Positions 26,342-45,756 of a DNA stretch of 49,917 nucleotides are shown here, piece after piece. Source of the DNA: a virus (Duplodnaviria > Heunggongvirae > Uroviricota > Caudoviricetes); IMG/VR virus record IMGVR_UViG_2718218131_000006, one strand, 5' to 3'. Position numbers and translations under genes: made by a program. Every line of letters starts with the position of its first letter. Position 1 is the first letter of the stretch. The notes beneath the pieces were generated by a model. That model did no database searches. It saw only the letters and a list, made by a program, of their open reading frames with translations, and was not told the origin of the DNA.

Positions 26342-26923
26342 ACTGTGATGGACTGTGCCGGACGGTCGACGGGCCCATAACGCCTGCTCCAGAGCATCCA
26401 GCACGAATGTCGTTTCCATAGACGATGAGACCCGCCACCCCACGATGTATCCGGCAAACACATCAATGATGAACGCCACATAGACGCCCCCCTGCCATGT
26501 GCTGACGTAAGTAAAATCAGCCACCCACAACTGGTCAGGACGTTCTGCCACAAACTGACGGTTTACGCGGTCGCCTGCGGCAACGGCTTTCCGGCTGACG
26601 GTAGTGCGGACCTTTTTACCCCGGAGAACACCGGCAAGTCCCATAACCGCCATGAGGCGCGCCACTGTACATCTGGCTACCCTGATTCCTTCCCGTAACA
26701 ACTGACGCCAGACTTTACGCACACCGTATACCTGATGATTCCCATCGTATACGCGCAGTATCTCTTTCTTCAGCCAGTCATCGCGCTGCGCACGGGCACT
26801 GCGTTTATCAGGATGATGTCGCTGTTGCTGACAGTGGTAATACGTTGACGGGGCAATATGTAGTTCACTGCATACCGGTCCGACCCCGTACAGCTTACGC
26901 AGCTTATCCAGCAGTGGCATCAC
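26342..26923 (-). pseudogene. IS629 transposase orfB, N-terminal fragment (interrupted)
   Basis: ...DQLWVADFTYVSTWQGGVYVAFIIDVFAGYIVGW...HHSDKG, then runs into IS21 end sequence. Confidence 0.8.
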
Positions 26924-27246
26924 TTTTTCCAGAGGCGGTCGAACTCCGCCTTTGCAAAATAAGCGGAAGCCTGGCGAAGGATATCGTTACTGCGGCGCAG
27001 TTCACGATTTTCACGTTCCAGCTCTTTCAGACGCTGACGTTCAGCGGTGGTGAGCCCGCCATCACCGCCTCCGGTATCCCGCTCATGCTGGCGTACCCAG
27101 ACACGCAGAGTCTCCGGTGTACAGCCAATCTTTGGGGCAATGGAACAAATTGCCGCCCACTGTGAGTCATATTCGCCCTGACTTTCCAGAACCATACGAA
27201 TCGCCCTCTGACGGACTTCGGGGGAAAAACGAGTATTTTTAGTCAT
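26920..27246 (-). CDS. IS629 OrfA (helix-turn-helix, leucine-zipper transposase subunit)
   Basis: [57 protein letters not shown] matches my memory of IS629 OrfA. Confidence 0.85.
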
Positions 27247-44787: not shown

Positions 44788-44997
44788 TTACAAAGCTGTA
44801 CCAGCAGGGCCACGACGACCAGCACCACGATTGTAATCAATGATGCCATTATAAAGCGCATTATTTAATTTATCGTCGAATGCCGATTCTGTGAGTCCTA
44901 GCTCTGAATGAGTTTTTAATAACCCTGATTGCCTGAGTTGATTAACCAGGCATTCAATCTGTTTTTCAATAAGCGGATGTATTGGCTTGTTTGGCAT
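44788..44997 (-). CDS. Hypothetical 69-aa protein, convergent with and abutting the 212-aa gene
   Basis: GGAGGA ribosome-binding site; MPNKPIHPLIEKQIECLVNQLRQSGLL...; stop codons of the two genes form TAATTA. Confidence 0.45.
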   Translation of the reverse strand: MPNKPIHPLIEKQIECLVNQLRQSGLLKTHSELGLTESAFDDKLNNALYNGIIDYNRGAGRRGPAGTAL

Positions 44998-45324
44998 TTT
45001 ATCCTCCATTGAGGTTCTGGGTTAAAAATGGAGACCAACACGCTGCCACGTGTGGTCGTGCGCCGGACACGGATAAGAATCCGGTACTGACAGTTTACTG
45101 AAAGGATATTTCCCTGAAAAGTCAGGGCATAACGCGAAAGCGCACGGCGGAGGTGTCTTTTCCTTAGAAGGCTTGTCGTTAGATTTCTTCGACCGTGCGC
45201 TTCCGGTTGTGGCAATCCGCGAAATGGCGCGGCGGTACGTATGGCGGGGTTATTCCTTCCCCCTGTTGAGGACACCGGGTTGTCAGGTTGACCATACGCC
45301 TGAGTGACAACCCCGCTGCAACAA

Positions 45325-45383
45325 CCCATGTTGATTACCTTTTGGCGGCATCAGTTTCATTGCTGGCTGATGTCCGCCCTTTT
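45325..45383 (+). ncRNA. dicF: DicF-like small RNA with intrinsic terminator
   Basis: TTTTGGCGGCATCAGTTTCATTGCTGGCTGATGTCCGCCCTTTTT resembles my memory of K-12 DicF; located just upstream of the dicB homologue as in Qin; 5' end approximate. Confidence 0.6.
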
Positions 45384-45387
45384 TAAA

Positions 45388-45550
45388 GTGAATTTTGTGA
45401 TGCGGTGAATGCGGCTCAGCGCACGCGGAACAGTTAAAAAGGCCAGTTGACTTCCGTATTGGTTCTTATGGGTGGGTTCTCTGTATCCGGCGTTAATTGT
45501 TAACTGGTTAACGTCACCTGGAGGCACCAGGCACCGCATCACAAAATTCA
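45388..45550 (+). promoter_or_regulatory. Perfect 19-bp inverted repeat enclosing about 125 nt, between the DicF terminator and the dicB ribosome-binding site
   Basis: TGAATTTTGTGATGCGGTG at 45388-45406 and its exact reverse complement at 45532-45550. Confidence 0.6.
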
Positions 45551-45567
45551 TTGTTGAGGACGCGATA

Positions 45568-45756
45568 ATGGAAACGTTATTACCAAACGTTAATACGTCT
45601 GAAGGTTGTTTTGAAATTGGTGTCAGTATCAGTAACCCTGTATTTACTGAAGATGCCATTAATAAGAGAAAACACGAACGGGAGCTATTAAATCAAATAT
45701 GCATTGTTTCAATGCTGGCCCGTTTACGTCTGATGCAAAAAGGATACTGGCAATGA
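45568..45756 (+). CDS. dicB: Cell-division inhibitor DicB
   Basis: 62 aa METLLPNVNTSEGCFEIGVSISNPVFTEDAINKRK...SMLARLRLM matches my memory of K-12 DicB; GAGGA ribosome-binding site. Confidence 0.8.
   Translation: METLLPNVNTSEGCFEIGVSISNPVFTEDAINKRKHERELLNQICIVSMLARLRLMQKGYWQ

What the first reader, a model, noticed from the sequence alone, without database searches (positions are those of the whole stretch)
45388..45550. Perfect 19-bp inverted repeat bracketing 125 nt immediately upstream of the dicB ribosome-binding site
TGAATTTTGTGATGCGGTG and its exact reverse complement flank a region that itself contains GTTAAC palindromes. In RNA this would form a long stem that could be an RNase III processing site (RNase III processing of the dicB operon transcript is documented for Qin) and could occlude the dicB ribosome-binding site about 7 nt downstream. 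A perfect 19-bp long-range stem is unlikely by chance.
Basis: partly seen in the sequence, partly recalled or inferred. Interest (0 to 1): 0.5.

Follow-up and report, generated by a model that had tools for sequence, protein, structure and literature searches.

The report
RNase III stalk around STnc100-like RNA
The perfect 19-base inverted repeat upstream of dicB is real; it is the extended closing stem of a conserved, pseudoknotted phage RNA domain related to the sRNA STnc100, and RNase III is already reported to cut the same stem in E. coli K-12, so the stem is mostly known and only the identity of what it encloses is new.

Summary
Observation confirmed. The arms are 45389-45407 and 45532-45550, 19/19 complementary with 124 nt between them. 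They extend to 21 bp and form the longest perfect inverted repeat in the window.

In K-12 Qin, RNase III processing of read-through dicBF mRNA gives a 72-nt DicF. Nucleotide 72 maps to position 10 of the orthologous left arm. RBS occlusion is not supported, because the Shine-Dalgarno sequence lies outside the helix.

The "GTTAAC palindromes" are the P4 loop and the pseudoknot strand. It belongs structurally to the prophage sRNA family STnc100 (RF02076). It scores below Rfam's threshold, but 51 bits with a model built only from canonical cores.

Other copies close with 4-10 bp. Only copies that follow a DicF/KilS-type terminator (upstream of dicB, kilR and other genes) carry the ~21-bp stem. 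Pairing in that stem is kept by G·U and compensatory changes on the + strand.

Most likely the stem is a processing stalk that separates DicF, a ~144-nt core RNA and the dicB mRNA. Interest is moderate to low.

The parts
45127..45212 (+). Context: long imperfect hairpin upstream of DicF. It is the probable equivalent of the K-12 RNase III site that makes the 5' end of the 190-nt DicF species.
   Evidence: The fold shows a roughly 28-bp interrupted helix. Inverted repeat I7 is at 45135-45147/45193-45205. A point 190 nt upstream of the terminator end (about 45384) is about 45195. Literature. The link is by homology and position only.
45329..45384 (+). DicF/KilS-like sRNA with an intrinsic terminator (hairpin 45344-45378, U-run 45380-45384).
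   Evidence: Rfam DicF RF00039 scores 34.1 bits, below the gathering score of 48, E 1.7e-5. The terminator scan finds it.
45387..45407 (+). The RNase III cut is predicted between 45398 and 45399.
   Evidence: The cut position is transferred from the K-12 72-nt DicF.
45411..45426 (+). P2 hairpin: 5 bp with bulged A45423 and loop UCAGC.
   Evidence: RNAalifold and pair counts on 42 family representatives show CG/GC/UA/AU covariation at 3 of the 5 pairs.
45431..45437 (+). Pseudoknot 5' strand CAGUUAA. It pairs with the P4 loop at 45500-45506.
   Evidence: A complementarity of 6 bp or more between the segment after P2 and the P4 loop is found in 34 of 42 representatives, with many different sequences. 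It is invariant within the long-stem subgroup.
45438..45490 (+). Variable region (P3 area). Its length and sequence differ between copies.
   Evidence: Alignments A1, A2 and A3.
45491..45513 (+). P4 hairpin (45491-45496 with 45508-45513). Its loop holds UUAACUG (45500-45506), the pseudoknot 3' strand. This hairpin contains both GTTAAC sites.
   Evidence: 2 pairs with compensatory changes.
45515..45531 (+). Invariant CA followed by the P5 hairpin CCUGG-AGGCA-CCAGG (45517-45521 with 45527-45531).
   Evidence: The motif CACCNGGAGGCACCNGGCACC is invariant across the family. The N/N' pair covaries, GC 31 and UA 11.
45532..45552 (+). The partner RNase III cut is predicted between 45542 and 45543.
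   Evidence: The cut position is inferred from the 2-nt 3'-overhang geometry of RNase III (established knowledge). It has not been mapped.
45556..45756 (+). dicB Shine-Dalgarno GAGGA (45556-45560) and dicB ORF (45568-45756, 62 aa).

Best explanation
The inverted repeat is the closing helix (P1) of a structured RNA domain of about 165 nt that fills the gap between the DicF-type terminator and the dicB ribosome-binding site. The domain has the architecture of the prophage sRNA family STnc100: P1, a bulged hairpin P2, a variable region, a hairpin P4 whose loop forms a pseudoknot with the segment after P2, and a hairpin P5 that abuts P1. In this operon-embedded subgroup P1 is lengthened from the usual 4-10 bp (mostly 6-9) to about 21 bp.

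When RNA polymerase reads through the DicF terminator, this helix forms on the + strand RNA and is cut by RNase III on both strands. By transfer from K-12 the cuts fall near 45398|45399 and 45542|45543. Three products would result:
- DicF with the longer 3' end, the 72-nt form of K-12.
- A core RNA of about 144 nt left with a 9-bp P1.
- A dicB-ydfD mRNA with a 5'-monophosphate leader of about 25 nt.

Shown here: the helix, its conservation, the family fold and the family membership. Taken from the literature for the K-12 orthologue: rnc-dependent cleavage at that position and read-through transcripts. Inferred: the second cut, the release of the core as a discrete RNA, and any effect on DicB output, whose direction is unknown.
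For: 1. The helix is 21 bp at -33 kcal/mol, and the local fold has z = -5.2.
2. Across 61 distinct DicF-linked sequences the 21 P1 pairs are 99.1% paired, against 32-41% for slid controls. There are two compensatory pairs (UA to CG, AU to GC). Three pairs carry pair-preserving G.U variants in 11-20 of 61 sequences, and the basal pair alternates between G.U, G-C and A-U. Pair-breaking variants affect only 1-5 sequences per pair, mostly one or two. All 21 arm haplotypes in 124 instances keep 19-22 bp.
3. G.U pairs would be C.A mismatches on the opposite strand or in DNA, so selection acts on the + strand RNA.
4. Family fold: on 42 representatives P1, P2 and P5 are 97.1% paired against 81.7% in shuffles, with 114 double-change cells against 37.7 and 0 of 500 shuffles as high. 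The pseudoknot is 6 bp or longer in 34 of 42.
5. Membership: Rfam STnc100 gives E 1.6e-5. A covariance model built only from 26 canonical cores, of which the 11 checked all pass Rfam's threshold, hits 45396-45543 end to end at 51.1 bits, E about 4.5e-11.
6. P1 is 4-10 bp in every other context. It is 15-22 bp only after a DicF/KilS-type terminator.
7. Literature: a 72-nt DicF produced by RNase III from the full-length transcript, the intergenic region listed as an RNase III substrate, nucleotide 72 at arm position 10, and a 1,608-nt read-through transcript ydfABC-dicFB-ydfD.
8. A cut at arm position 10 leaves a 9-bp P1, within the 7-9 bp typical of stand-alone copies.
Against: - No cleavage data exist for this strain. 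The 72-nt figure comes from secondary citations, because Faubladier 1990 was not readable, and gel sizing may be off by a few nucleotides.
- The later K-12 study discusses only the upstream RNase III site and the 190-nt and 53-nt species.
- All long-stem copies have nearly identical arms. The link between a long P1 and a DicF-type terminator is therefore a single evolutionary event, not repeated convergence.
- Covariation within the long part of P1 is modest: 2 of 21 pairs change on both sides, and 11 never vary.
- The element fails Rfam's gathering score for STnc100 (34 against 47 bits).
- No RNA of the predicted core size has been reported in the papers searched.
Confidence: 0.7

Rival explanations
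1. The stem acts mainly as a translational gate: by standing next to the dicB ribosome-binding site it blocks 30S binding until it is removed or melted.
For: The helix ends 4 nt before the Shine-Dalgarno sequence and 15 nt before the AUG. In the full read-through RNA the partition function pairs GAGG (45556-45559) with the terminator tail CUUU (45379-45382), giving P(unpaired) of 0.05-0.09. That rises to about 0.98 after the predicted cut. DicB is toxic, so tight control is plausible.
Against: The Shine-Dalgarno and AUG are not in the helix. The GAGG/CUUU contact is 4 weak pairs, two of them G.U; it appears in the minimum-free-energy fold but not in the centroid, and it is lost when the 5' end lies after the terminator (P(unpaired) 0.65). 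The same stem precedes kilR, a Rha-like gene and another small gene, with different leaders of 15-25 nt and different Shine-Dalgarno contexts. From general knowledge, helices that end several nucleotides 5' of a Shine-Dalgarno sequence usually do not inhibit initiation.
Confidence: 0.12
2. The long helix is a stabilising clamp, and RNase III cutting is incidental. It would protect the 3' side of read-through DicF and the 5' end of dicB mRNA from exonucleases and RNase E, or simply lock the STnc100-like fold when it is embedded in a long transcript.
For: Embedded domains need stronger closure than stand-alone ones, and P1 is long only in the embedded copies. In the K-12 rnc mutant the upstream ydfA-containing transcripts were not detected at all, so RNase III effects on this operon are not simple.
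Against: From established knowledge, a nearly perfect duplex of 21 bp is a standard RNase III substrate in E. coli. An rnc-dependent 3' end is reported at its middle. Other embedded copies make do with 8-10 bp, for example in a phage-plasmid tRNA cluster and upstream of DicF-like hairpins.
Confidence: 0.12
3. The repeat is a DNA-level feature: the terminal inverted repeats of a miniature mobile element, a protein-binding palindrome, or a recombination linker between phage modules.
For: Perfect 19-bp arms flank a 124-bp segment. The module sits at a mosaic junction with at least four different downstream genes. Related cores occur in many phage contexts and in tandem arrays.
Against: There is no target-site duplication (the flanks are AAAG and TTGT) and no second copy of the arms in the window. 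Common variants are G.U pairs that hold only in + strand RNA; about 100 of 1281 cells would be mismatches in DNA or on the other strand. Most family members lack long arms yet keep a covarying 4-10-bp P1. The interior shows RNA-type covariation and a pseudoknot.
Confidence: 0.03

Closest known systems
RNase III site in the K-12 Qin dicF-dicB interval (Faubladier, Cam and Bouche 1990, as cited in PMC5069750, PMC9438474 and PMC2777011)
   Same: It is the orthologous sequence: 89.8% identity over the interval, the same arms, the same position after the DicF terminator and before dicB. The reported 72-nt DicF 3' end falls in the middle of the left arm.
   Different: K-12 has two G.U wobbles (GAUGUGGUG / CACUGCAUC) where this window has C-G and G-C, so the window's stem is the perfect version. 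The variable middle region is 14 nt longer here. The DicF-like RNA upstream lacks the K-12 5' segment. No processing data exist for this allele.
STnc100 (Rfam RF02076) and the related PasD sRNAs of lambdoid prophages
   Same: It has the same core motifs (GGUGAAU ... CACCNGGAGGCACCNGGCACC) and the same P1/P2/P4/P5 layout. A model built from canonical cores matches it end to end at 51 bits. The Rfam consensus also closes with a long-range outer stem.
   Different: Canonical copies are stand-alone genes of about 200 nt in the late region, after tRNA or stx genes, with their own Rho-independent terminator and a 6-9-bp P1. This copy has no terminator and no predicted promoter. It lies inside an early operon, uses GCGGC...GCaCGC in P2 instead of CCCCC...GGaGGG, has a 21-bp P1, and scores below Rfam's threshold (34 against 47 bits). 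The function of STnc100 itself is unknown.
KilS-kilR leader of the Rac prophage (K-12 b4833; PMC8175672)
   Same: It has the same three-part module: a DicF-like hairpin and terminator (KilS, 98 nt), then the long-stem STnc100-like domain, then a small cell-division inhibitor gene.
   Different: The downstream gene is kilR, which is unrelated to dicB. The right arm carries a 1-nt bulge and one G.U pair (22 bp in total). No RNase III data were found for that leader.
Processing stalks of rRNA operons and other intercistronic RNase III sites (metY-nusA, rpsO-pnp, T7 early mRNA, lambda N leader). These are analogies from established knowledge; some are listed in PMC2777011.
   Same: It works alike: a long-range duplex formed by sequences that flank a structured RNA, or that separate cistrons, is cut on both strands. 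The cut releases the pieces and sets the fate of the downstream mRNA.
   Different: There is no sequence relationship. Here the enclosed RNA is a domain of about 144 nt of unknown function, and the effect on the downstream mRNA has not been measured.

Membership tests
RNase III processing stem | About two helical turns (roughly 20 bp or more) of nearly uninterrupted double-stranded RNA | tested here: met
   21 contiguous pairs (19 Watson-Crick, then G.U and A-U), -33.1 kcal/mol. Homologues keep 19-22 bp.
RNase III processing stem | Pairing is conserved on the transcribed strand | tested here: met
   99.1% of cells are paired in 61 distinct sequences, with compensatory and G.U changes that are valid only on the + strand.
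RNase III processing stem | rnc-dependent ends mapped inside the stem | not testable with these tools
   For the K-12 orthologue only, from secondary citations: the 72-nt DicF 3' end, which maps to arm position 10. The primary paper is not held.
RNase III processing stem | The stem is transcribed as one RNA, which requires read-through of the DicF terminator | not testable with these tools
   K-12: a 1,608-nt ydfABC-dicFB-ydfD transcript is reported. No promoter-like site lies between the terminator and dicB in the window.
STnc100 (RF02076) | Score at or above Rfam's gathering threshold (47 bits) | tested here: not met
   34.0 bits; E 1.6e-5 in the local search and 8.6e-4 for the whole window. 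Other GCGGC-type copies (L003, L004, L007, L010, L019) also fail, while all 11 CCCCC-type cores checked pass at 52-160 bits.
STnc100 (RF02076) | Core sequence motifs and helices P1, P2 and P5 | tested here: met
   Model R1, built from 26 canonical cores with none of this subgroup, matches 45396-45543 over model positions 1-124 at 51.1 bits, E about 4.5e-11.
STnc100 (RF02076) | P4 hairpin with its loop pairing to the segment after P2 (pseudoknot). This feature was derived here from the family and is not part of the Rfam annotation. | tested here: met
   In the window CAGUUAA 45431-45437 pairs with UUAACUG 45500-45506. A pairing of 6 bp or more is found in 34 of 42 representatives.
STnc100 (RF02076) | Stand-alone sRNA gene with its own promoter and Rho-independent terminator | tested here: not met
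   No promoter-like site or terminator-like site flanks the domain. It is followed directly by the dicB ribosome-binding site. Canonical copies end in a GC-rich hairpin plus a T-run.
STnc100 (RF02076) | Hfq-associated, trans-acting RNA | not testable with these tools
   Reported for PasD and, by co-immunoprecipitation, for STnc100. Nothing is known for this copy.
DicF (RF00039), the adjacent upstream RNA | Score at or above the gathering threshold (48 bits), with the 5' single-stranded segment followed by the terminator hairpin | tested here: not met
   34.1 bits. The hairpin and terminator are present, but the K-12 5' segment UUUCUGGUGAC is missing and the hairpin resembles KilS.
Miniature inverted-repeat transposable element | Terminal inverted repeats with a target-site duplication and further copies | tested here: not met
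   There is no direct repeat at the flanks and the arms are unique in the window. The variation pattern is RNA-like.
tRNA or tmRNA gene | Detected by ARAGORN or the Rfam tRNA models | tested here: not met
   ARAGORN finds no gene in the window and there is no Rfam tRNA hit.

The most novel reading that the evidence does not exclude
The dicBF-type and kilS-kilR-type early operons of lambdoid prophages encode a third, overlooked RNA product. This would be a pseudoknotted STnc100-like core of about 144 nt that RNase III excises from the read-through transcript by cutting the long stalk. The cut trims P1 to the 9 bp seen in stand-alone STnc100 genes. The core would then act on its own, as an Hfq- or protein-binding regulator or decoy, alongside DicF and DicB. 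The same domain would thus be delivered in two ways: as its own gene in the late region, or as an excised intercistronic RNA in the early region.
Probability: 0.3. Interest if true: 0.6.

Novelty: new variant of a known kind. Interest (0 to 1): 0.35.

Why it matters
DicF and DicB are the textbook prophage-encoded inhibitors of E. coli cell division, and how their operon is processed is still being worked out. The known RNase III cut downstream of DicF lies in the closing stem of a conserved structured RNA. The same DicF-like, stalked-domain and gene module also precedes kilR and other genes. This gives a concrete and testable picture of the read-through transcript as three functional pieces. 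It also adds a divergent, operon-embedded branch that current Rfam thresholds miss to STnc100, one of the most abundant yet function-less enterobacterial sRNA families. The RNase III site itself is not new, and nothing here shows what the core does, so the practical gain is better annotation and a sharper experiment rather than a new mechanism.

Tried and rejected
- The Rfam scan of the whole window at gathering thresholds found only the ALIL pseudoknot of an IS3-family element, and nothing at the locus.
- ARAGORN found no tRNA or tmRNA.
- The promoter and terminator scan found no promoter inside the element and only the DicF terminator.
- The MITE or DNA-palindrome reading was rejected. There is no target duplication, the arms are unique in the window, and the variation is RNA-type G.U variation.
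- The first alignment of the long-stem copies (A1) placed the 1-nt bulge inconsistently and was not used for counting. It was replaced by A3, trimmed at the arm ends.
- MAFFT could not put P4 and the pseudoknot of the whole family in one register. They were therefore analysed per sequence with a script and loop-shuffle controls, not with the count of structure pairs.
- The primary papers could not be read (Faubladier 1990 and Faubladier and Bouche 1994). The supplement of the transcriptome-wide RNase III map is not held, and neither global RNase III study mentions the site in its main text. A 2026 preprint on CsrA and sRNAs that mentions PasD was also not readable.
- An ATG in P1 of many canonical copies (GCAUGGUG) was considered as a possible start of a small ORF. 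It was rejected because those positions covary with the 3' strand and are not conserved.
The question is about RNA, and the neighbouring genes are annotated in identical or orthologous records.

Full report
**1. Observation**

The window holds a perfect 19-nt inverted repeat, TGAATTTTGTGATGCGGTG at 45389-45407 and its reverse complement at 45532-45550, with 124 nt between the arms. Two more pairs, G45388.U45551 and A45387-U45552, extend the RNA helix to 21 bp, with a duplex energy of -33.1 kcal/mol.

It is by far the longest perfect inverted repeat with a loop of up to 300 nt in the 49.9-kb window. The next is 13 nt, twenty block-shuffles gave maxima of 10-14 nt, and the analytic expectation for 19 nt is about 5e-5. 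The arm sequence occurs nowhere else in the window, even with three mismatches.

Folding 45330-45580 as RNA gives -96.5 kcal/mol, with z = -5.2 against dinucleotide shuffles. The long helix closes a multi-branched domain.

**2. Setting**

The region is a Qin/Rac-like early-left operon of a lambdoid prophage of E. coli. It is 100% identical to strain PK8241 over the 461 nt queried and 89.8% identical to K-12 Qin. Matches to it occur in 4642 of 5426 complete E. coli genomes.

Reading left to right, the features are:
- A long imperfect hairpin at 45127-45212.
- A DicF-like RNA with an intrinsic terminator at 45329-45384. Rfam DicF scores 34.1 bits, below the threshold of 48.
- The inverted repeat and what it encloses.
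- The Shine-Dalgarno sequence GAGGA at 45556-45560.
- dicB at 45568-45756 (62 aa).
- A DUF1482/ydfD-like gene and a recE-like gene.

The left arm starts 4 nt after the terminator's U-run.

**3. What is already documented**

Three open papers that cite Faubladier, Cam and Bouche (1990) bear on this stem. [quoted passage not shown] A review lists the dicA-dicF-dicB intergenic regions among RNase III substrates (PMC2777011).

In MG1655, dicF is annotated at 1649382-1649434. Counting 72 nt from that 5' end lands on the tenth base of the 19-nt left arm of the K-12 stem (...GAAUUUUGU|GAUGUGGUG). The rnc-dependent end therefore lies in the middle of this helix, where RNase III would be expected to cut a duplex of two turns. 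Transferred to the window, the cut is between 45398 and 45399.

The 2023 study of the operon confirms read-through transcripts (a 1,608-nt ydfABC-dicFB-ydfD RNA). It also confirms a second RNase III site upstream of DicF that makes the 5' end of a 190-nt species (PMC10448788). That site corresponds by position to the 45127-45212 hairpin and is a different structure.

I could not read the 1990 paper. The 72-nt figure therefore rests on secondary citations and may be uncertain by a few nucleotides.

**4. What the arms enclose**

The 124 nt are not a spacer. A permissive Rfam scan of the locus matches STnc100 (RF02076) across 45377-45600 at 34 bits (threshold 47), E 1.6e-5. The consensus structure of that family is closed by the same kind of long-range outer stem.

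The specific motif also gave 17 stretches among species-representative genomes. These came from E. coli, E. albertii, E. ruysiae, Shigella, Citrobacter, Pantoea and Erwinia, plus a few metagenome bins with implausible taxonomic labels.

All instances share this layout:
- N-GGUGAAU.
- A bulged hairpin P2.
- A variable region.
- A hairpin P4.
- CA followed by a hairpin P5 (CCNGG-AGGCA-CCNGG).
- CACC-N.

On 42 representatives below 88% identity, RNAalifold recovers P1, P2 and P5. Cells are 97.1% paired against 81.7% in column shuffles, with 114 double-change cells against 37.7, and 0 of 500 shuffles reach the observed covariation score.

A per-sequence analysis shows that the segment just after P2 is complementary to the loop of P4. 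The match is 6 bp or longer in 34 of 42 representatives. It uses many unrelated sequences, for example CUGGUGU/ACACCGG, GAACUGGCA/UGCCAGUUC and AGACUGACAAA/UUUGUCAGUCU. This is a covarying pseudoknot.

In the window this pairing is CAGUUAA (45431-45437) with UUAACUG (45500-45506).

**5. Family membership**

The CCCCC-type cores tested are genuine STnc100 by Rfam's own threshold, scoring 52-160 bits. The GCGGC-type cores fall below it. That group includes the window, K-12 Qin and Rac, a phage-plasmid copy, and copies that precede DicF-like hairpins.

I built a covariance model from 26 CCCCC-type cores only. It matches the window at 45396-45543 over all 124 model positions with 51.1 bits, E about 4.5e-11 (a rough calibration), and it matches all other GCGGC-type copies at 47-61 bits.

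The element is therefore a divergent branch of the STnc100 structural family. It lacks two properties of the canonical genes. It has no terminator of its own, and no promoter-like site is predicted. I file it as a variant, not as a plain member.

In the papers searched, STnc100 has no assigned function. Its relatives PasD1 and PasD2 are Hfq-dependent sRNAs of EPEC prophages. None of the eight papers that mention STnc100 was found to link it to dicF or dicB; six were checked directly.

**6. The long stem is special to one context**

Among 94 unique family instances, contiguous P1 is 4-10 bp, most often 8. The exception is copies that directly follow a DicF/KilS-type terminator (...CCGCCCUUUUUAAAG), where it is 15-21 bp, or 22 bp with a one-base bulge.

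That module of a DicF-like hairpin plus a stalked domain precedes dicB, kilR, a 283-aa Rha-like gene and a 94-aa gene. The helix always ends 15-25 nt before the start codon. In K-12 Rac the upstream hairpin is the verified sRNA KilS.

Across 61 distinct long-stem sequences:
- The 21 P1 pairs are 99.1% paired, against 32-41% for slid controls.
- Two pairs show full compensation (U-A to C-G and A-U to G-C, four sequences each).
- Three pairs carry pair-preserving G.U variants at high frequency (11-20 of 61), and the basal pair alternates between G.U (49), G-C (11) and A-U (1).
- Pair-breaking variants affect only 1-5 sequences per pair, mostly one or two.

K-12 itself differs from the window by two such wobbles. 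G.U pairs would be mismatches on the other strand or in a DNA cruciform, so the constraint is on the + strand RNA.

Caveat: the arms are nearly identical in all these copies. The long stalk arose once and has been maintained. The association with the terminator is not independent replication.

**7. Mechanism proposed**

Polymerase that reads through the DicF-type terminator transcribes both arms. The 21-bp duplex forms and RNase III cuts it.

Taking the K-12 3' end together with the enzyme's 2-nt 3' overhang (established knowledge), the partner cut falls near 45542|45543. The products would be:
- DicF with the longer tail.
- A 144-nt core (45399-45542) that keeps a 9-bp P1, within the 7-9 bp typical of stand-alone copies.
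- A dicB-ydfD mRNA with a 5'-monophosphate leader of about 25 nt.

Whether this raises DicB synthesis or lowers it is not known. Removal of structure could raise it, as in the lambda N leader. Decay triggered by the new 5' end could lower it, as in rpsO-pnp or metY-nusA.

The steps have different standing. The helix, its conservation and the family fold are shown here. The left-arm cut is taken from the literature on the orthologue. The right-arm cut, the release of the core and the effect on DicB are inferred.

**8. Ribosome-binding-site occlusion**

The Shine-Dalgarno sequence and AUG lie outside the helix. In the full read-through RNA the model pairs GAGG with the terminator tail CUUU (P(unpaired) 0.05-0.09). 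This is four weak pairs that are absent from the centroid fold. The contact is lost if the RNA starts after the terminator (P(unpaired) 0.65) or after the predicted cut (about 0.98). The leaders of kilR and the other downstream genes differ. I rate this idea as unsupported but not excluded.

**9. Verdict**

The RNase III reading is right in substance, and for the K-12 orthologue it was published in 1990. The occlusion reading is weak.

The new element is one of annotation and architecture. The stem is the processing stalk of an operon-embedded, sub-threshold STnc100-like pseudoknotted domain, and this domain is shared by the dicF-dicB and kilS-kilR leaders.

The most novel reading still open is that the excised core is a functional RNA in its own right. 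I put that at about 0.3.

Noticed in passing
window 45329-45384 (+): The DicF-like RNA scores below Rfam's DicF threshold (34.1 against 48 bits). It lacks the K-12 5' single-stranded segment UUUCUGGUGAC and has a near-perfect hairpin like that of the Rac sRNA KilS, so its targets may differ from those of K-12 DicF.
   Followed up: partly
window 45127-45212 (+): A long interrupted hairpin upstream of DicF sits where the K-12 RNase III site that makes the 190-nt DicF species would be. The operon therefore carries two RNase III-type helices that flank DicF.
   Followed up: partly
window 44788-45009 (-), promoter-like site 45025-44996 (-): A 73-aa ORF lies antisense inside the dicBF-type operon with its own promoter-like site. 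It is annotated as hypothetical protein WP_033813301.1 in the identical strain and is absent from K-12 Qin. It may be an inserted extra gene.
   Followed up: no
window 45264-45273 and 45552-45561 (+): The 10-nt direct repeat TGTTGAGGAC occurs twice. The second copy holds the dicB Shine-Dalgarno sequence. The first lies upstream of DicF and is also present in K-12.
   Followed up: no
window 45472-45756 (+): The dicB reading frame stays open upstream to a GTG at 45472 (94 aa), running through P4, P5 and the right arm. This recalls the title of a 1988 paper, seen only in a reference list, that speaks of translation of DicB from an in-phase internal start.
   Followed up: no
window 26849-26965 (-): An ALIL pseudoknot (RF01497, 116 bits), the frameshift signal of an IS3-family transposase. 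It is the only Rfam hit above threshold in the window.
   Followed up: no
L017 2322-3354; L026 261-689 and 10180-10289; L028 342-1038; L082; L102: STnc100-type cores occur as tandem arrays of two or three diverged copies in some viral contigs, often next to tRNA genes.
   Followed up: partly
L007 3440-3640 (-), likewise L009, L020, L022, L107, L109, L126: In another group of phages the order is reversed: an STnc100-like core with a 9-bp P1 is followed by a DicF-like hairpin and terminator. The two RNAs are therefore linked in either order.
   Followed up: no
window 45517-45531 and all family members: The invariant P5 hairpin contains GGAGG, which resembles a Shine-Dalgarno sequence. A published EDL933 ribosome-profiling table lists ribosome footprints on several STnc100 copies. 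No link between the two was tested.
   Followed up: no
L005 (strain EC27), L144, L154: Some dicB loci have lost DicF, the left arm and the 5' half of the domain by deletion or replacement. They keep only P4, P5, the right arm and dicB, so in those loci dicB lies behind an unpaired right arm.
   Followed up: no
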